A DNA stretch of 40,487 nucleotides from a virus. Lineage: Duplodnaviria > Caudoviricetes. A program made the position numbers and the translations under genes. A model generated the notes under the pieces. That model was not told where the DNA came from and ran no database searches. It saw only the letters and a list, made by a program, of their open reading frames with translations. Shown here piece after piece: positions 3,259 to 39,666 of this stretch; the first letter of the stretch is position 1, and each line of letters opens with the position of its first letter. Location: the IMG/VR virus record IMGVR_UViG_3300043411_000841, positions 1 through 40,487 of that record. One strand, 5' to 3'.

Positions 3259-3657
3259 ATGGCAGACAACCCGAACGAATTAGTAAATTACAACATAGAT
3301 TATAAAAATTGGAATATCAAACAATGTCAAGGTCCATGGCTATGGCTTTTGATGGTGGATGAACCGGACTCTGAGTATATTACACTTGGAAGCGGACTCC
3401 AGGTTAAGACCCAAGAACATGTAAAAAATGCATTTCGTGTTGTAAAAGTTATTAAGAGTGGTCCTGATTGTAAAGTTGCAAAAGAAGGTGATTTCGTGTT
3501 GATTCCGCCCGGTAATTTTATGGCAGGGCATAAAACAAAGGACGGTCATAAAACAGCATTCATCCGCGAAGAAATGATTTTGGGAACTTTGGAGTTCGAT
3601 GGAACTAAAGATGAAATGATTCGTGCAATCAAAGAACAACTACAGACTGGAATATAA
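3259..3657 (+). CDS. groES: GroES-like co-chaperonin (functional analogue of T4 gp31)
   Basis: TLGSGL mobile-loop-like segment, VIKSGPDCKVAKEGDFVL and FIREEMILG; TAAGTA 6 nt upstream. Confidence 0.7.
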   Translation: MADNPNELVNYNIDYKNWNIKQCQGPWLWLLMVDEPDSEYITLGSGLQVKTQEHVKNAFRVVKVIKSGPDCKVAKEGDFVLIPPGNFMAGHKTKDGHKTAFIREEMILGTLEFDGTKDEMIRAIKEQLQTGI

Positions 3658-3953: not shown

Positions 3954-4568
3954 ATGACTTCCAAAGAAGTATTGAAACTATTAAAGGTTACTAGACCGAC
4001 TCTGACTTCCTATGTAAAAAACGGAAAAGTCAGAGTTGAACCATTACATAATGGTTATTATAATTATAATAAGGAAGATGTGTTTAAATTGTTGAGCAAA
4101 GATGTTGTTAGAAAAAATATCATATATTCCAGAGTTTCCACTAAAAAACAGAAAAATGATTTAGCAAATCAAGAACAAACATTAATACAATTTTGTAATA
4201 AGTCAGGCTATACCATTCATGATTCGTATAAAGATATTTCTTCTGGAATGAATTTTGAAAGAAAAGGTTTTAATCAAATTTTAGATGATTTGTTTGAATT
4301 TAAAATAGATAAACTTTTTATAACATATAAAGATCGTTTATCCAGACTATCGTTTGATATGATCAAAACTGTTTTTAAAGAATTTGGATGTGATATAGTC
4401 GTTATTAACGATATTGATGATCCAAAGACTGTTGAAAAGGAAATATTCAATGAAATTATTTCAATAATACATTGTTTCTCAATGAAATTATATTCCAGTA
4501 GAAGAAGAGAAAAATTTAAACTTCTTGAGAAAGATCTACAAATGGAAGAGGATGCAATTAGTTTATAA
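3954..4568 (+). CDS. tnpA: IS607 transposase (N-terminal HTH plus serine recombinase)
   Basis: N-terminal MerR-like HTH; IYSRVSTKKQKNDL catalytic Ser motif; DISSGMNFERKG; YKDRLSR. Confidence 0.95.
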   Translation: MTSKEVLKLLKVTRPTLTSYVKNGKVRVEPLHNGYYNYNKEDVFKLLSKDVVRKNIIYSRVSTKKQKNDLANQEQTLIQFCNKSGYTIHDSYKDISSGMNFERKGFNQILDDLFEFKIDKLFITYKDRLSRLSFDMIKTVFKEFGCDIVVINDIDDPKTVEKEIFNEIISIIHCFSMKLYSSRRREKFKLLEKDLQMEEDAISL

Positions 4569-5817
4569 ATTTAATCATTATAAAAATAATGAAAAGCTGG
4601 ATATATTATCTAAAACGTGTAATGATCTATATAATCAAACACTGTATTTGATTAAAAACCACTTTGAGAAAACTGGAAAATATTTGTCGGCATTTGAAAT
4701 GGATAAAATAATGAAAGTAACTCCTAATTTGGATGGGGAAATAAATTATAAATTGTTGAAAGCACAATCTTCTCAACAAGTTTTAAAGATACTAGATAAA
4801 AATTTTAAATCATATTTTAAATCAATAAAGGATTGGAAGAAAAATCCATCAAAATATAAAGGAATGCCAAAACCGCCAAGTTTTAAGAAATCTGGAGACA
4901 GATCAATCATTTATTACACCAATCAAAATTGTAAAATTAAAGGTAATCTATTGATTTTAGACAAAGATTTGATTATAAATTTACCACAAAACAAAGAATT
5001 TAAGCAATTCAATCAAGTTAGAATTATGCCAAAGAAAAATTATTATGAAATAGAAATTGTATACGAAAGAATGGAAGCGCCAAAGATTGATTCCGGTAAT
5101 GTTGCCAGTATTGATTTTGGCATCAATAACATAGTAACTATGATTTCTAATTTAGAAAGACCAATAATTATCAATGGTAAACAAATAAAAGACTTTAATC
5201 AGTTATACAATAAACAAAAAAGTAGGTTGGTTAGCATTAAAGATAAAATGAAAGTAAAAGGATATACGAAGAAATTATATGAAATAGAAACCAAAAGAAA
5301 CAATAAAATGAAAGATATGATGCATAAAATTAGTGCATTTATAGTTAATTACTGTAAAGTAAAGAATGTAGGTAAATTAGTTGTAGGTTATAATAAATCG
5401 TGGAAGACCCACATTAATCTTGGAAACAAGACAAACCAGACATTTACACAAATTCCTTTTGCTAAACTTTTACAGATGTTAAATTATAAATGTAAATTGA
5501 TTGGATGCGAATTAGTAGAAACAGAAGAATCATATACATCTAAATGCGATCATTTAGCAGATGAAGAAATGAAACACCACAAAGAATATAGAGGTAAACG
5601 CATTAAAAGAGGTTTATTTCGTTCCAGTATTGGTAAAGTATTGAATTCAGATGTAAACGGTGCATTAGGAATTATGAAAAAAGTAGTTGATAAATCTTTC
5701 GTAAGAAAAATAATCAATAGTGGGTTCTTGTTTAACCCAGTTAAGATAAGGAATGTGTTTGAAATAAACAGATTTAATCTCTTGACAAACAGTTCTAATT
5801 GTGTTAATATCCTTTAA
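4552..5817 (+). CDS. tnpB: TnpB RNA-guided nuclease with rearranged RuvC-II
   Basis: RuvC-I SIDFGINN; RuvC-II LVVGYN with downstream EESYTSK; RuvC-III NSDVNGA. Likely start is ATG 4552, overlapping the end of tnpA. Confidence 0.92.
   Translation: MQLVYKFNHYKNNEKLDILSKTCNDLYNQTLYLIKNHFEKTGKYLSAFEMDKIMKVTPNLDGEINYKLLKAQSSQQVLKILDKNFKSYFKSIKDWKKNPSKYKGMPKPPSFKKSGDRSIIYYTNQNCKIKGNLLILDKDLIINLPQNKEFKQFNQVRIMPKKNYYEIEIVYERMEAPKIDSGNVASIDFGINNIVTMISNLERPIIINGKQIKDFNQLYNKQKSRLVSIKDKMKVKGYTKKLYEIETKRNNKMKDMMHKISAFIVNYCKVKNVGKLVVGYNKSWKTHINLGNKTNQTFTQIPFAKLLQMLNYKCKLIGCELVETEESYTSKCDHLADEEMKHHKEYRGKRIKRGLFRSSIGKVLNSDVNGALGIMKKVVDKSFVRKIINSGFLFNPVKIRNVFEINRFNLLTNSSNCVNIL
5680..5780 (+). ncRNA. putative TnpB omegaRNA (reRNA) scaffold region
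   Basis: Expected by family knowledge at the tnpB 3' end; short hairpins TGGGTT..AACCCA (about 5721-5740) and TGTTT..AAACA (about 5756-5770). Boundaries are inferred. Confidence 0.35.
5782..5810 (+). promoter_or_regulatory. sigma70-type promoter
   Basis: TTGACA-N17-TAATAT with extended TG; ATG 5817 is 6 nt downstream. Confidence 0.65.
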
Positions 5818-24704: not shown

Positions 24705-26249
24705 TTAGCTGAAATAGCGAACGGCTGTAGCAGCAGGTGCATAACTTGTGCAATCGGTCAGAGCGCGATTAAGTTCCTTGACTAGGATCAAGTGATAGTA
24801 GTTTTCACTACCAAATAGATTATCCATAACCGCATAACGGGTGAGCAAACCAACGCGAGGCTCAAACGAATTTGGGGTGATTGTGCGCTGCACGAGAACA
24901 GGAATATAAGGGCAATAAACCAATCCAGTATCCCAGTATTCACTACCCTTATAACCAAGTAGCGCATATTCTACAGGTTCTGCACGCATACCGGCCAAAT
25001 ACTGTGCTTCAGTTCTGGTATCACGATAGATATTAAACTGACCAGCAAGGCTACCGACACGAGCAACACCATTAGGATGTGCCATCACATCAGAACTTAC
25101 ACTAAATGGGTTGAACTCTTTAAGGAGTTGAAGAATAGTGCAAACTTTAGGTGTTGCGATAATGAAGTTAGCAGGACCTCTACGGTTTTTGATTGCCATA
25201 CGGTTTGCTTCGGTAACGATCTTAGCATAGAAATCTACGCCACGTTCACCCAACCAACGAGCATCAGCAAGTGATGGACGCCAGATAGAATAACCGTTAT
25301 TGATACCCGCATTAAGTGCAATCTGAATCATACGCATTACCATTTCACGGTCGATTTCGGACTGAATTTCATATGACATGACGTTAGTCATTTCGGCATC
25401 AATATCAATACCGTTCATATTCATCAAATCCTGTTCGACTTCCATTGACCAACCGCTTGCAAGTCTACGAGTTCCAGCTTCAACAGCTTTCTTCTCGATC
25501 TTGAGAGACATAGTTGGGATGTTTGAAGAGGCTTCGAAGTGACTTAGAAGCTGTGCAACACCAGTGTCATAACCAGGAACGAAGTCAAAGCAAGAACCGC
25601 TAGTAGAATTACTAGTAGTTGATCCCAAACCACTTAGACCAGCAGCAGTAATACCAGTATGAGCAGTATTAAGTTTCTGATAACCAGCTTCAGTATTAAC
25701 TAGATGTCCGGTAGGGAAGGTCTTAGAACGATCACAGTCGGAATCAGTATAAGGACTACATGCAAGAGGATCAGTATCATAGAAGTAACGCATTGCAAAT
25801 GCCAGACCAACAGGACCGCTCATAGGTTGAACACCTACGATTTCATGAGTGATAAGCTCAGGGAAAGTTCTGCGAATCATTGGAATCAATGTCTTAGGAA
25901 GACGTGCATCACCAGGAGCATACCAATCTGAGGACTTGAGTGCATTACCATACTGACCATTAGTAGTAGGAGCAGAACCAGGAGTTCCACCGCCCCAAGG
26001 AGCAGATGCAAGAGTTCCGCCACCAAGAATAGGGGATTCTTGTAACAGACCTTTATCTTTAAACCATTTTTCCTGTTGTTCAAGCACCATTGCGGTTGCA
26101 AGGCGTTTGTGATGACCGGTAACAGGGGCCGTTTGTGCGTCTTCGAAATCGAGCATTGCGCTCCATTTATTCATTAGACCTTGAGCACGATCCTGAGTCA
26201 TAAGACTAGGAGCAGACTCGACGAAATTAGATGGGTGTAATTGTGCCAT
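24705..26249 (-). CDS. gp23: major capsid protein
   Basis: LIPMIRRTFPELIT, VGVQPMSGPVGLAFAMR, EIQSEIDRE, NRRGPANF, YCPYIP and SFEPRVGLLTRY. Confidence 0.98.
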   Translation of the reverse strand: MAQLHPSNFVESAPSLMTQDRAQGLMNKWSAMLDFEDAQTAPVTGHHKRLATAMVLEQQEKWFKDKGLLQESPILGGGTLASAPWGGGTPGSAPTTNGQYGNALKSSDWYAPGDARLPKTLIPMIRRTFPELITHEIVGVQPMSGPVGLAFAMRYFYDTDPLACSPYTDSDCDRSKTFPTGHLVNTEAGYQKLNTAHTGITAAGLSGLGSTTSNSTSGSCFDFVPGYDTGVAQLLSHFEASSNIPTMSLKIEKKAVEAGTRRLASGWSMEVEQDLMNMNGIDIDAEMTNVMSYEIQSEIDREMVMRMIQIALNAGINNGYSIWRPSLADARWLGERGVDFYAKIVTEANRMAIKNRRGPANFIIATPKVCTILQLLKEFNPFSVSSDVMAHPNGVARVGSLAGQFNIYRDTRTEAQYLAGMRAEPVEYALLGYKGSEYWDTGLVYCPYIPVLVQRTITPNSFEPRVGLLTRYAVMDNLFGSENYYHLILVKELNRALTDCTSYAPAATAVRYFS

Positions 26250-34061: not shown

Positions 34062-34517
34062 ATGGAAAATATGGTTCGTAAATTTATTCATCTATTATTC
34101 CCCACAGCATCATCACATAAAACTGTATGGGTTGGATATTATAATTTACAAATTGAGTATGATACACCATTTCAAGGAAAATGGAAAGAACACAAAACTT
34201 GTAGATTGTATGAAGTCCGTGAATCGTATTCACCGGACGAAAATCGGTTTACTGATCCAGACAAATATCTTATACGTGATGTATATTGCATGTATGTTGA
34301 ACCGTGTGATGTTGAGAATATGCGGTTTCAAGATAATAGAATTTATTTTGATGTTGAGAAATATAAGTCCGGTGTATTAGAAATGTATTCGTCTATACGA
34401 CCTTTAACTGGTCCAGTAGGTCTTTCATTTGCAATGAGAGAATTCTATGATATAAAAGAATTACCACTAGAATGTGATAAATTGATTAACCAGAATTTTG
34501 AAAAATTAACACTATGA
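34062..34517 (+). CDS. hypothetical protein
   Basis: 151-aa ORF in operon. Confidence 0.6.
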   Translation: MENMVRKFIHLLFPTASSHKTVWVGYYNLQIEYDTPFQGKWKEHKTCRLYEVRESYSPDENRFTDPDKYLIRDVYCMYVEPCDVENMRFQDNRIYFDVEKYKSGVLEMYSSIRPLTGPVGLSFAMREFYDIKELPLECDKLINQNFEKLTL

Positions 34518-35968: not shown

Positions 35969-36460
35969 TTATCGAAGTCCGATAGACTGTTTAATGTATT
36001 GTAACTTATTCTGGATCAGCATTTTAGCCCTGCTAATTTCATCTGTGGGGTCATCTCCTACTGGAAGATTTTGTAGTGCGATCATCAATTTTTTATAATC
36101 ATGTTTCATCTCTTCGATTTCTGACGGAGAAGGTTTATATATGTGTGATTCACCAACTGGCTCTACTACTTCTATCTCTGGATGCATGTCCAATAGCTTT
36201 TTGGCTAAGTCTTGGATTTTTCCTGCACGATAATAAGTGTCTTCGCCAATTTGTTTACGAAGTTTTTTGATGTGGTTTATGATCTTAGTCGCAATCTCAG
36301 TCTCTGTAATTTCGTCTTCAATGGTTTCTTGTTCACCACAATCACCTTCACAGTCAGGCGGCTCAGTAGCAACCGTAATCGGCCCTACTGGTGTAAGCGT
36401 TGCAGATGATGCAAGATCGCTCAAAATATTTTCATAAAGGGTATCAAAATTTTTAGTCAT
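35969..36460 (-). CDS. probable internal head protein
   Basis: MTKNFDTLYENIL N-terminus, acidic, ITE and VGES putative cleavage sites. Confidence 0.55.
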   Translation of the reverse strand: MTKNFDTLYENILSDLASSATLTPVGPITVATEPPDCEGDCGEQETIEDEITETEIATKIINHIKKLRKQIGEDTYYRAGKIQDLAKKLLDMHPEIEVVEPVGESHIYKPSPSEIEEMKHDYKKLMIALQNLPVGDDPTDEISRAKMLIQNKLQYIKQSIGLR

Positions 36461-37353
36461 TTGTTTTTATTTATTGAAACACAATTATTGACTCGTTTTC
36501 CGTTTTTTATCTTAGTCCCCTGTTTTTTATAACCAGACCAACATTTTATTTCAGTCATTATCTGATTATAAATAGATTCAAATTTAGGAAAATTTGTGGC
36601 AATACTTTCACGAATATCATCTGATTTATCATTAAATCTTTTTGATAAAGGAATAATATTGCTTTCATTGTCATAAGTCACTGGATCAGCAGATTTGATT
36701 TGATTTGTATAGAATAACGCCATGTTATTTATGCCATCTTCTTTAACATAAAGTCCATCAAATTTTAACGATCTGATAGCTTGTAATGTGGCGGTGTCTT
36801 CCAGTCTTTCCCATACACCACTTTTTATCGCTTGGATACCAATTTTTCCTAGACTGGTTGCTATTGCTAATTTCTTAATATGTGCATTATTTGTATAATC
36901 AAATAAATTCGCGGATTTAATGAAAAGTTTTTTTATTTTTGCATCTGGATTATTTTCAATCCATTTTTTGGCCCACACATAACTTGGTGTTACAAAAAAT
37001 ACACCTTTTTTGTTTAAATTGAATTGTGTAAATCTATTCAGTGTCGCATGATAAACATAGTCGTTAGCATAACCATTAGATTTTGCCACCATATCTACCA
37101 TTTTTTGCACAGTTTCCATATCACCACGGTTTACCGCATGCAAATATTGGTCGTCTATATTAGAAACAGATTCTTCCATTTTATTTAACTTTGTATAATA
37201 TTTAGGATCTTCTTTTAAATGAGATGCCGCTATTTTAGCCGTCATTTGGGCATCGCCGTGAGTCACATCCTGATGTTCTTTTTCTACATCCATTCCCATC
37301 TTTGCTTGTTTTTTATCGAACTTTTTTAACTGTTTGGGAATTTTTGAAGACAT
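36457..37353 (-). CDS. multidomain protein: DUF5661-like + ART-PolyVal-like ADP-ribosyltransferase + CWxGY peptide
   Basis: GMDVEKEH..KIAASHLKEDPKYYTKL; VYHAT..F..F..GVFFV..FDGL..QIKSADPVTYD..IPLSKRF; KCWSGYKKQGTKIKNGKRVNNCV. Confidence 0.7.
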   Translation of the reverse strand: MSSKIPKQLKKFDKKQAKMGMDVEKEHQDVTHGDAQMTAKIAASHLKEDPKYYTKLNKMEESVSNIDDQYLHAVNRGDMETVQKMVDMVAKSNGYANDYVYHATLNRFTQFNLNKKGVFFVTPSYVWAKKWIENNPDAKIKKLFIKSANLFDYTNNAHIKKLAIATSLGKIGIQAIKSGVWERLEDTATLQAIRSLKFDGLYVKEDGINNMALFYTNQIKSADPVTYDNESNIIPLSKRFNDKSDDIRESIATNFPKFESIYNQIMTEIKCWSGYKKQGTKIKNGKRVNNCVSINKNK

Positions 37354-37375
37354 ATAAGATTATTTAACTTTTTGT

Positions 37376-37404
37376 TTGACATGGAAAACCAAATGTGGTA
37401 TGTT
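37376..37404 (+). promoter_or_regulatory. sigma70-type promoter
   Basis: TTGACA-N17-TATGTT with extended TG; ATG 37414 is 9 nt downstream. Confidence 0.7.
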
Positions 37405-37413
37405 ACACAACTT

Positions 37414-37671
37414 ATGATAACATCACCAATACAACCAGCAAGTGAAGTAAAAACTATGACAATGAATTATTATCTATCTGGAGAATATGCCAAATACATT
37501 AACCATGAAATTGAAGTTAATAAAAAATGCGGTAAAAATGCATTTCTCACGGAAATTCCCAACTCACTTTTTGTTACATTTTCCGAAAAAATAGCCTTGT
37601 TGGGATATAAGACGATCTCGATTAAAGAATACGATTCCTTTACAAAGTTTATTATTTCTTGGGATATTTGA
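37414..37671 (+). CDS. hypothetical protein
   Basis: Start reassigned to the first ATG downstream of the promoter. Confidence 0.55.
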   Translation: MITSPIQPASEVKTMTMNYYLSGEYAKYINHEIEVNKKCGKNAFLTEIPNSLFVTFSEKIALLGYKTISIKEYDSFTKFIISWDI

Positions 37672-37719
37672 TTGATACGGAATACCCACTAAAAGAATTA
37701 GATGCATTTAATGAATTTT

Positions 37720-37884
37720 ATGACTAAAGAAATATTTTGGATAAATGATACAGGATGTCAAACCTTATTGGGCTTTTGTAATATTGAATATCCTGCTAAA
37801 AGAGGTAATAACATAAGTTACGGTGAAAAGAAACTGTGTAATCTAAATGCCGAAAATCTACATTATTTGTTGAAAACCAAATAG
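37720..37884 (+). CDS. short ORF, possibly the frameshifted N-terminus of the next ORF
   Basis: The frame of the next ORF is open from 37842 and overlaps this one. Confidence 0.4.
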   Translation: MTKEIFWINDTGCQTLLGFCNIEYPAKRGNNISYGEKKLCNLNAENLHYLLKTK

Positions 37885-37925
37885 TAGAATTTCCGATCAA
37901 ATGTGAGATCGAAGATGATCAGACT

Positions 37926-38132
37926 TTGATGTGTGTAGATGAACGAATCCCCACAGAGTTTTTGATTGATACTAGGAAAGACGATGCAGAATGGAGAAAA
38001 CATGCGGTTCATCAATTTACATTGAGTGGAGACGATTACATTCTAAATGGGTATAAAATTACCCAAACATGGGATGAAGGAATTGTATGGTGTCCGTATA
38101 TTCCAAAAATAAAGAATATTGGAAATGAATAA
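37926..38132 (+). CDS. small protein carrying a major-capsid (gp23) C-terminal segment
   Basis: DYILNGYKITQTWDEGIVWCPYIP vs gp23 EYALLGYKGSEYWDTGLVYCPYIP, 14/24 identical, ungapped. Confidence 0.7.
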   Translation: MMCVDERIPTEFLIDTRKDDAEWRKHAVHQFTLSGDDYILNGYKITQTWDEGIVWCPYIPKIKNIGNE

Positions 38133-38346
38133 AGAAGAATTTATACAACAATTTGTATGCAATTATACGGCAGATTACATGGTTAATCGAACAACCACTG
38201 GTTTTGTCGTTCCATCAGATTTAACAGATAAAGCCATTGATATGGCTAAACATGTTTGGCGGTCTTTAGAAAACACTAAACATTCACATAAAAGGACATC
38301 ACCGGTGACTGGTGAAGAAATGGATATGTTTGGATGGGCAAATTAG
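38125..38346 (+). CDS. hypothetical protein
   Basis: ATG overlapping the end of the upstream gene. Confidence 0.55.
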   Translation: MNKEEFIQQFVCNYTADYMVNRTTTGFVVPSDLTDKAIDMAKHVWRSLENTKHSHKRTSPVTGEEMDMFGWAN

Positions 38347-38936
38347 AAATGAAGGCGTTTAATATCATCCAAAAATTCTTGTGTATAATCACCTTTGTAT
38401 TTGGTATCCATCATATGTTTAAATGATGGAAAATCTGTGTAAACGTCAATTTTATGCGATGGCACCTTTATTTTCTGTGAACTTCCATATATAGCGATAT
38501 ATTGATCATCCGATTGCTCGTTGTAGTGATTGCGTTCTTCGTCCGTCAACGAACGATAATCTTTGGCTAAAAGGAATGGTAGACCATTCCATCTTGCGCT
38601 TGAAAGAAGCATGGTAGTGGTTGGCGACGGTGGGTAATTAGGGTCGGAATCTGGAAACCATTCAGAATCTAATAAACTATATTTGGATGGATCTTGTTGA
38701 GTTCCAAAGACAAATTTTTCTATTTTCACACTTTGATCTTGAGAAAAGTGTGAACCTATGCATAATATTCTATTTGGAGTAGGTTTTCCCGCCTTATCTA
38801 CAATATAGTTCTTTCCCTTAAAAGATGTATCACCGTCTCCATGAAAAACAAAATTACGGTTTACAGGAATAACGGTATTTGCTAATGATACTAAGGGTGT
38901 CGATAATGCGGCTTTGATGAACGATCTTTTTGTCAT
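38343..38936 (-). CDS. hypothetical protein with Tat-like signal
   Basis: MTKRSFIKAALSTPLVSLA; TAAGTA 7 nt upstream. Confidence 0.55.
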   Translation of the reverse strand: MTKRSFIKAALSTPLVSLANTVIPVNRNFVFHGDGDTSFKGKNYIVDKAGKPTPNRILCIGSHFSQDQSVKIEKFVFGTQQDPSKYSLLDSEWFPDSDPNYPPSPTTTMLLSSARWNGLPFLLAKDYRSLTDEERNHYNEQSDDQYIAIYGSSQKIKVPSHKIDVYTDFPSFKHMMDTKYKGDYTQEFLDDIKRLHF

Positions 38937-38973
38937 ATCAAATTACTTATATGAAACTCGGGAACAAATCAAA

Positions 38974-39666
38974 TTAGATCATCTGCATGAGACGTTGGAA
39001 TCCTTCTAGAATATGCTTGTTTATCGCATCTCTGTGATGCGTTGGATATTTAGAAAGATGTTTTTCAAATTTTGCAAAGGCTTCTGCAACATGACCATCA
39101 TCTGCGATAATGAATTCTTTATTTTCTAAAATACCTTTTACGAAACCCGTATCAGGGTTATTAAGAGAACCACCTATGCTCGGGTCATATACGCAGTCAA
39201 TTGAGCACAGGGTCAAATTCCTTACTCGGGACACACCTGCTGATTCTTCTACATTCCCAACCGCCCGACTTGACATTCCCAAAGAAAAGCCGTCATTTAT
39301 CAGTGATTCCATAATGCGACCACTAGGAGTAGATGCAACCAAGGATTTTCCAATATATAGTTTCCCTTCCTTTTTGAGGCTCAGGATGCGGTGGCAAATT
39401 TTTGAAAGATCAATTTCTGGAGATGCTTCATGATTAAGTGTTCCACCAGCACGTTGACGATTAATGAAATTTTCGGTAAAGATTTCCACTGCTGGTGCTA
39501 GATCTTCTTCTTCATAAATTCTGTTATTTTTGTTACGTTCGCCGGTGAGCAAGTAACTTCCCTGCACATACAATCTTTTCTCCGAATCTCTGTTTGTTTG
39601 TTCATATACGAATTCCAGGTCATAGCTAGCTGATTCGGCTTCAGTAATAAGTTTCAATTTACGCAT
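38974..39666 (-). CDS. gp21: prohead core protease
   Basis: RNKNNRIY, GTLNH, STPSGRIM, LGMSSRAVG and DCVYDPS. Confidence 0.95.
   Translation of the reverse strand: MRKLKLITEAESASYDLEFVYEQTNRDSEKRLYVQGSYLLTGERNKNNRIYEEEDLAPAVEIFTENFINRQRAGGTLNHEASPEIDLSKICHRILSLKKEGKLYIGKSLVASTPSGRIMESLINDGFSLGMSSRAVGNVEESAGVSRVRNLTLCSIDCVYDPSIGGSLNNPDTGFVKGILENKEFIIADDGHVAEAFAKFEKHLSKYPTHHRDAINKHILEGFQRLMQMI

What the first reader, a model, noticed from the sequence alone, without database searches (positions are those of the whole stretch)
37720..38132. Stand-alone copy of a major-capsid segment in a predicted early operon: candidate capsid mimic or immune decoy
Seen: the ORF ending at 38132 contains DYILNGYKITQTWDEGIVWCPYIP (38034-38105). 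This aligns without gaps to the phage's own gp23 segment EYALLGYKGSEYWDTGLVYCPYIP (about 24900-24971, minus strand) at 14/24 identities, and both have a DTR tripeptide shortly upstream. Seven of the 13 identical non-Trp residues use different synonymous codons, so the match is conserved at protein level and is not a recent DNA duplication. The gene lies on the opposite strand, 12 kb from gp23, downstream of a sigma70-type promoter (37376) and without a late TAAATA box. It is 68 aa, or about 137 aa if joined to the 37720 ORF by a one-base shift near 37840, which is too small to be a gp24-type vertex protein. The first gene of the same operon also contains ALLGYK, identical to gp23, which may be chance. 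Established: capsid proteins trigger host defences such as Lit (T4 Gol peptide) and CapRel. Inference: an early-made capsid fragment could titrate or block a capsid-sensing defence protein, poison head assembly of competing phages, or regulate this phage's own assembly.
Basis: partly seen in the sequence, partly recalled or inferred. Interest (0 to 1): 0.78.

Follow-up and report, generated by a model that had tools for sequence, protein, structure and literature searches.

The report
Broken capsid-peptide-tailed phage accessory gene
The 68-residue "capsid fragment" is the back half of a phage gene broken by a one-base deletion; intact relatives join a small predicted domain to a conserved tail copied from the capsid protein, which likely acts as bait for a protein that reads new capsid chains.

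Summary
The capsid match is real: 38034-38105 matches gp23 at 14/24 residues (tblastn E 1e-5). It is not a stand-alone 68-aa gene. 37720-38132 is one 137-aa gene that lacks one A in the run at 37873-37876 (not near 37840). Three contigs of other strains carry the extra A, and six 134-144-aa intact alleles exist.

The intact protein is an ~85-aa carrier domain (predicted small beta-barrel, no clear PDB match, also in KVP40, BF and CBB) plus a low-confidence tail copying T4-gp23-equivalent residues 432-455. The carrier is under purifying selection (11 synonymous, 6 non-synonymous changes). All 12 close relatives keep the tail core, while the linker before it drifts. Fifteen of 72 distant relatives carry this or other gp23 pieces (shuffles: about 0). 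A sigma70-type promoter and the lack of the phage's late box point to early expression.

Best reading: peptide bait for a chaperone, protease or sensor that reads nascent gp23 (0.4, untested). The window's allele is likely null. A second ORF (34062-34517) carries a different gp23 piece. This scan has noted carrier-plus-capsid-peptide genes on other DNA; seven literature searches found no description.

The parts
37376..37404 (+). sigma70-type promoter (TTGACA, 17 nt, TG-extended TATGTT); in-frame ATG 38 nt downstream at 37414, the spacing seen at other plus-strand TTGACA sites
37414..37671 (+). first ORF of the unit (85 aa from ATG 37414, 71 aa from ATG 37456); holds ALLGYK at 37594-37611, probably chance
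37720..37884 (+). 5' piece of the broken gene: first 51 codons of the carrier domain, then a premature TAG at 37882-37884 (54 aa)
   Evidence: carrier-domain HMM 49.5 bits
37873..37876 (+). A4 run, one base shorter than in intact alleles: the frameshift lesion
   Evidence: table 4 (X3, X5, X12 have the extra A; X1 and X2 match the window)
37926..38132 (+).
38034..38105 (+). gp23-derived segment, equal to window gp23 aa 427-450 and T4 gp23 about 432-455
   Evidence: 38.9 bits
38125..38346 (+). overlapping downstream ORF of the same unit, unknown function; its N-terminus resembles the gene just upstream of the orthologue in L009/L010
24705..26249 (-). resident gp23-type major capsid protein (514 aa); source-like segment at 24900-24971; late TAAATA box 14 nt before its ATG
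34062..34517 (+). second small ORF (151 aa) ending in a different gp23 piece (34392-34478 = gp23 aa 139-165, T4 about 113-139)
   Evidence: (25.3 bits, 0 in shuffles)

Best explanation
37720-38132 is a frameshifted, likely null allele of a 137-aa accessory gene whose intact product is a predicted small folded carrier domain with a likely flexible tail copied from a conserved C-terminal stretch of the gp23 capsid protein; it is likely made early and likely acts as peptide bait for a protein that reads nascent gp23. Shown: the lesion, the intact alleles, the two-part anatomy, purifying selection on the carrier, retention of the tail core (GYK...YCPYIP) across 42-62% identical relatives while the linker drifts, and repeated attachment of gp23 pieces to the same carrier in distant phages. 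Predicted: carrier fold and a tail that does not pack on it.
For: Intact alleles: 6 of 7 members of the 90% cluster are 134-144 aa, the seventh is the window's 67-aa piece; 3 of 5 contigs spanning the site carry the extra A. Selection: carrier 11 synonymous vs 6 non-synonymous variants, pN/pS 0.13, p 4e-5. Tail retention: 12 of 12 close-subfamily proteins hit the gp23 C-terminal segment HMM; majority-residue fraction 0.83 for GYK and 0.82 for the last eight motif residues against 0.36 for the linker. Not a fresh copy: codons differ from the resident gp23 in the window, L003 and L005 (same codon at 7/14, 4/10, 7/12 identical residues), and the L005 tail has YAPY where its own gp23 has YCPY. Recurrence: 15 of 72 distant members carry one of three gp23 pieces at 8 bits or more, about 0.02 expected from shuffled tails; 10 of 68 still do after requiring a carrier-only hit; Pfam Gp23 hits in P0026, P0031, P0055, P0058. 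The copied window ranks 23 of 491 in conservation among 31 gp23. AlphaFold2: carrier pLDDT 83-98, tail 52-68. Promoter class. Capsid proteins are known triggers, including T4 gp23 via the chaperone CmdC (10.1101/2024.02.24.581662, passages) and the 29-residue Gol peptide via EF-Tu/Lit (PMC3014915, passages).
Against: No partner is identified and no reader of this particular segment turned up in the papers I read. The Avs7 sensor recognises the whole HK97 fold, burying 3,700 square angstroms (PMC13581612, passages), which a 24-residue tail cannot present. A trigger-like peptide could activate rather than block a defence. Among close strains the segment shows 3 non-synonymous and 0 synonymous changes, all in its variable middle, too few to show selection at that scale. 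57 of 72 distant members and 5 of 5 cultured-phage homologues have no gp23 piece at threshold, so the carrier has a job without the tail. Low tail pLDDT may reflect few aligned tail sequences. Only copies of conserved gp23 stretches are detectable, so their choice may be detection bias.
Confidence: 0.4

Rival explanations
1. The tail was picked up from gp23 by illegitimate recombination and is kept for a role unrelated to mimicry (a structural hairpin or stabilising end); the gene's function is that of the carrier alone.
For: The carrier exists without gp23 pieces in most distant members and in KVP40, ValKK3, D479, BF and (only 3.5 bits) S13. Orthologues lie 35 nt (L003) and about 1 kb (L005, L006, L011) from the 3' end of gp23, convergently, a position that could favour capture. 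The model shows a beta-hairpin at 98-113. Close members lack the CxxC found in 61 of 72 distant members, so the tail might replace that module.
Against: Three different gp23 pieces, far apart in sequence, recur on this carrier, sometimes two in one protein (P0026, P0027, P0031), scattered over the tree (14 label changes, though starred branches force only 2). The most gp23-like residues are the best kept.
Confidence: 0.27
2. The protein binds gp23 or its folding and assembly partners through the copied strands, tuning the phage's own head assembly or poisoning a co-infecting T4-like phage.
For: The copied pieces are core gp23 stretches (T4 about 432-455, and the strand and helix at window gp23 250-312). 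Tails can resemble gp23 types other than the resident one (L005). The phage encodes a GroES-like co-chaperonin.
Against: An early product that poisons a stretch conserved in the phage's own gp23 would harm its carrier. The gene is patchy: carrier matches in 3 of 26 related records, 1 of 3 near-complete ones, and it is broken here, so it is not needed for assembly.
Confidence: 0.18
3. It is a minor late virion protein that uses the gp23-like tail to be built into or onto the head.
For: It sits among late head genes in the window and next to gp23 or the prohead protease in L003, L005, L009, L010.
Against: No late TAAATA box, which precedes gp23, scaffold, protease and sheath; sigma70-type promoter instead; cultured homologues lie in strings of small hypothetical genes or among tRNAs.
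Confidence: 0.07
4. The window's split allele is itself functional: the 68-aa 3' piece is translated from 37926/37929 as a stand-alone capsid mimic.
For: The split allele occurs in contigs of two studies (X1, X2) and the 3' frame is open.
Against: The internal start is an ordinary Leu-Met of the carrier domain; the piece begins inside a confidently predicted domain; all other alleles are joined; an A4 run is not a recognised slippage site (own knowledge).
Confidence: 0.05
5. The likeness to gp23 is chance or convergence.
For: The match is short and under Pfam's cut-off.
Against: E 1e-5 within the window; orthologues score up to 44 bits; 0 hits in five shuffled sets of 2,635 ORFs; the family profile finds gp23 itself at E 2e-4 to 9e-4 in 9 genomes.
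Confidence: 0.03

Closest known systems
T4 gp23 major capsid protein and its paralogue gp24 (Pfam PF07068, PHROG 138; PDB 6uzc, 5vf3, 1yue)
   Same: The tail is homologous to gp23 residues about 432-455.
   Different: Only 24 of about 500 residues; no HK97 fold; fused to an unrelated domain; not under the late promoter; dispensable.
Gol peptide of T4 gp23 with EF-Tu and the e14 Lit protease (PMC3014915, passages)
   Same: Precedent that a 29-residue linear piece of gp23 is read by host proteins.
   Different: Gol lies in the first quarter of gp23 and acts within gp23 as a trigger; this tail is from the last fifth and is a separate gene. The 34062-34517 ORF carries a piece from the Gol end of gp23 (overlap with Gol rests on recalled numbering).
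Capsid-sensing defences: CmdTAC (gp23 binds chaperone CmdC), Avs7/Avs8/Avs10, CapRel, Thoeris
   Same: They supply the selective pressure that a capsid-peptide bait would answer (passages; listings).
   Different: They are host systems; Avs7 reads the whole fold; I found no phage-encoded capsid-peptide decoy against them in the searches named.
PHROG 23380 / PHROG 14054 (unknown function): KVP40.0227, Serratia phage BF_0471, Pectobacterium phage CBB A0A1L2CVH5
   Same: Share the N-terminal carrier domain (36-55 bits for five cultured homologues; Foldseek E 7e-4 to the CBB protein).
   Different: They have cysteine-containing extensions and no gp23 tail at threshold.
Phage mimic-type anti-defence proteins (DNA mimics such as Ocr; passages of 10.1101/2025.06.06.658234)
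   Same: Small accessory proteins that work by imitating a ligand of a defence protein.
   Different: They imitate DNA or an antitoxin, not the phage's own structural protein; the word capsid does not occur in that paper's main text.

Membership tests
gp23/gp24 capsid proteins (PF07068) | Pfam Gp23 score above the curated cut-off over most of the model | tested here: not met
   17.8 bits vs 24.4, model positions 297-324 of 376
gp23/gp24 capsid proteins (PF07068) | Complete HK97 fold (about 400 residues or more) | tested here: not met
   137 aa, of which 24 are gp23-like; the model's confident part is an 85-residue domain
gp23/gp24 capsid proteins (PF07068) | Late expression | tested here: inconclusive
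   No late box, sigma70-type promoter; sequence signals only
Gol peptide (Lit/EF-Tu trigger) | Derived from the 29-residue region in the first quarter of gp23 | tested here: not met
   Tail maps to T4 gp23 about 432-455 of 521; 0 of 84 family tails hit the Gol-region HMM
Gol peptide (Lit/EF-Tu trigger) | Binds EF-Tu and activates Lit | not testable with these tools
   Needs biochemistry
Decoy for fold-reading sensors (Avs7 type) | Presents the A-domain, P-domain and E-loop surface of the HK97 fold | tested here: not met
   24-residue piece only; sensor interface from PMC13581612 passages
PHROG 23380/14054 carrier-domain family | Profile match over the N-terminal 85 residues | tested here: met
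   Transitive: the subfamily profile finds 76 distant proteins at E 0.001 or better, 59 of which hit PHROG 23380 or 14054 at E 0.01 or better; P0001 itself hits neither, and 5 of 15 rows of A4 hit 14054 weakly (best E 0.013)
PHROG 23380/14054 carrier-domain family | CxxC just after the carrier domain (61 of 72 distant members) | tested here: not met
   Absent from the close subfamily
OB-fold / SH3-like small beta-barrels | Significant structural match to a solved barrel | tested here: inconclusive
   Best Z 3.4, rmsd 4.6, 57 aligned (6ok1_D), many OB/Tudor rows tied; Foldseek PDB no match at E 0.001
Phage anti-defence proteins | Rescues phage from a named defence system | not testable with these tools
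   Needs plating assays

The most novel reading that the evidence does not exclude
Large T4-like phages use a widespread, uncharacterised carrier domain as a display platform for short copies of the least changeable stretches of their own capsid protein, gaining, swapping and switching off these peptide baits to blind host proteins that read nascent capsid chains; the pieces chosen would map the capsid epitopes that bacteria watch.
Probability: 0.3. Interest if true: 0.85.

Novelty: new variant of a known kind. Interest (0 to 1): 0.5.

Why it matters
Capsid proteins are common immune triggers and are hard to mutate. A family that hangs conserved capsid peptides on a small carrier would be a route to immune evasion by self-mimicry that my searches did not find described, and it names a specific gp23 stretch (T4 432-455) as a candidate host-read epitope. 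Natural tail-bearing, tail-less (KVP40, BF) and broken alleles give ready controls. For the window itself the result is modest: its copy is a broken allele.

Tried and rejected
Complex prediction of the L003 orthologue with its own gp23 (aa 70-500): no verdict, score 0.00, controls not run; no evidence either way. No RNA holder listed for 36500-39500. Runs X4, X6, X7 do not span the lesion. Foldseek PDB: no match at E 0.001; VIA-align best Z 3.4; PDB sequence search with A4 gave only E 0.36 or worse. ESM Atlas: P0001 best 0.75, unnamed; P0031 best 0.91, unnamed, mostly viral clusters. Bacillus phage BpSp hit (E 0.2) lies in a 287-aa hypothetical gene and was not pursued. tblastn of P0073 and P0031 against cultured phages: no match. 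DTR and ALLGYK as further gp23 signal: rejected. Frameshift near 37840: rejected. Assembly error unique to the window: unlikely, X1 and X2 of two studies both match it with 0 differences, although each is flagged as a possible source. The careful tree did not finish; the quick tree is mostly unresolved (54 of 84 inner branches open), so one origin with losses versus repeated capture is not settled. The 151-aa ORF has only one 90% identical relative among 83-265-aa proteins, so selection on its gp23 piece could not be tested.

Full report
Setting. The window is a linear virus record of 40,487 bases, about 17% complete, from a T4-like phage whose 514-aa gp23 is at most about 31% identical to cultured phages. 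It holds primase, terminase, tail tube, sheath, ligases, scaffold and prohead protease.

Observation. The alignment reported is right: 38034-38105 against gp23 aa 427-450, 14/24 identical, 7 of 13 non-Trp identities on different codons, tblastn E 1.35e-5. Pfam Gp23 and PHROG 138 both give E 0.0023. By counting in the phmmer alignment to 6uzc the segment equals T4 gp23 about 432-455, far from the Gol region, which lies in the first quarter of gp23 (PMC3014915, passages).

The gene is broken, not small. The open 3' frame found one relative, 137 aa and 89% identical. Its 90% cluster has 7 members: 6 of 134-144 aa and the window's 67-aa piece. Of 8 runs laid, 5 have a contig spanning the site: X3, X5 and X12 (three studies) carry one more A in the run at 37873-37876; X1 and X2 match the window exactly. 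The lesion is therefore a one-base deletion present in a strain, giving a 54-aa N-terminal piece and an orphan 3' frame. Variants listed in those two calls (23 of 26 differences for X12, 12 within the gene for X3) give 11 synonymous and 6 non-synonymous changes in the carrier, pN/pS 0.13, p 4e-5; the linker has 2 and 1; the gp23 segment 0 and 3, all between its two conserved cores.

Anatomy of the intact protein. A five-sequence profile found 13 clusters at 90% and 82 representatives at 50%, most matching only positions about 10-85. AlphaFold2 on an 83-row alignment gives pLDDT 83-98 in blocks over 1-90 (short strands and a helix) and 52-68 over 91-137. No solved structure matches clearly; the only Foldseek hit under E 0.001 is an uncharacterised protein of Pectobacterium phage CBB. 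59 of 76 distant members hit PHROG 23380 or 14054, both of unknown function. The carrier occurs in 64 cultured-phage records through P0089, among them KVP40, BF, fHe-Yen9-04 and S13; five of these, translated, score 36-55 bits on the carrier HMM and at most 3.5 bits on gp23-segment HMMs. 61 of 72 distant members have CxxC right after the carrier; the close subfamily does not.

gp23 pieces on the carrier. I built four segment HMMs from 31 gp23 sequences and scored the part of each family protein after the carrier, with 100 shuffles each. Of 88 proteins, 4 with tails under 12 residues were dropped. 27 of 84 score 8 bits or more: 24 on the C-terminal segment, 3 on the strand before the long helix, 3 on that helix, 0 on the Gol region; shuffles give 0.01 or less per segment. 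That is 12 of 12 close and 15 of 72 distant members. Since the search profile included the tail, I rescored with the carrier alone: 68 of 76 distant proteins still pass, 10 of them with a piece, so the bias is modest. In 12 close members the majority residue holds 0.66 of rows in the carrier, 0.36 in the linker, 0.83 at GYK and 0.82 over the last eight motif residues. The tails are old: they differ at codon level from the resident gp23 in three phages, and one has YAPY against YCPY in its own gp23. On a quick tree the 11 close members included form a clade (SH-aLRT 97); other piece-bearing proteins are scattered but the backbone is unresolved.

Context and timing. 18 of 45 TAAATA sites precede an ATG by 10-17 nt (background 2-4%), including gp23, scaffold, protease and sheath; none lies in 37354-38132 on +. 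5 of 17 plus-strand TTGACA precede an ATG by 32-39 nt (background 3.3%), 37376 among them. A short, low-depth contig in X5 has promoter-like letters resembling 37388-37400 directly before this gene, a hint only. Early expression is inferred, not measured. Orthologues lie convergent to gp23 (35 nt in L003, about 1 kb in L005, L006, L011) or to the prohead protease (L009, L010). True carrier matches occur in 3 of 26 related records, 1 of 3 near-complete ones; most records are fragments.

Mechanism. A conserved, gp23-derived tail with low predicted order on a dispensable, probably early protein fits bait for something that reads gp23 as a linear chain. T4 gp23 triggers CmdTAC through the chaperone CmdC, with the binding region unknown (10.1101/2024.02.24.581662, passages), and Gol shows a 29-residue piece can be read. 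Fold-reading sensors such as Avs7 are poor candidates (PMC13581612, passages). I put bait at 0.4, capture kept for an unrelated or structural role at 0.27, action on capsid assembly at 0.18, virion protein at 0.07, a functional 68-aa piece at 0.05 and chance at 0.03. No partner is shown.

Known and new. It is not a gp23/gp24 member and not a Gol copy. Searches found no description of capsid-peptide tails on phage accessory proteins; I read passages of PMC7824862, 10.1101/2025.06.06.658234 and PMC13728456 without finding one, and saw CapRel (10.1101/2022.05.30.493996) and Thoeris (PMC11312562) papers only as listings. The library lacks most subscription papers and I read no supplements, where such genes could be listed. 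Earlier notes of this scan report similar designs on other DNA, none by sequence for this family; they are unchecked leads, not support. Gol's residue numbers (about 94-122) and the remark on slippage sites are recalled.

Verdict. Observation partly confirmed, interpretation partly supported at family level, window allele likely null. New variant of a known kind (mimic-type accessory proteins), interest 0.5.

Noticed in passing
window 34062-34517 (+): 151-aa ORF ends in a second gp23 piece (gp23 aa 139-165, the Gol end); one 90% identical relative keeps it.
   Followed up: partly
L009 3353-3700 (+): 115-aa ORF with an N-terminal KRDFFK motif and a 16-residue copy of the gp23 long helix (17.1 bits, 0 in shuffles), on the same contig as an orthologue of the gene studied.
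   Followed up: partly
window 38343-38936 (-): 197-aa ORF begins with a similar KRSFIK motif (twin-arginine-like, recalled label); no Pfam or PHROG match.
   Followed up: no
window-wide: Promoter motifs sit right against start codons (TAAATA 12-17 nt, TTGACA 34-39 nt before ATG), suggesting leaderless or very short-leader transcripts for both classes.
   Followed up: partly
window 36457-37353 (-): 298-aa late gene joins DUF5661 to an ART-PolyVal ADP-ribosyltransferase-like domain; the L010 orthologue is 188 aa and matches only its two ends.
   Followed up: no
window 3954-5817 (+): Resolvase plus transposase-like pair (PHROG 6620, 506), IS607-like by recall, inserted behind a late TAAATA box.
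   Followed up: no
G019:C1:121435-121515: 80-aa frame with a gp23 helix piece (PF07068 169-195, E 1.5e-4) in a complete related genome that lacks the carrier gene.
   Followed up: no
window 3259-3657 (+): GroES-like co-chaperonin (PHROG 3188, E 1.4e-4).
   Followed up: no
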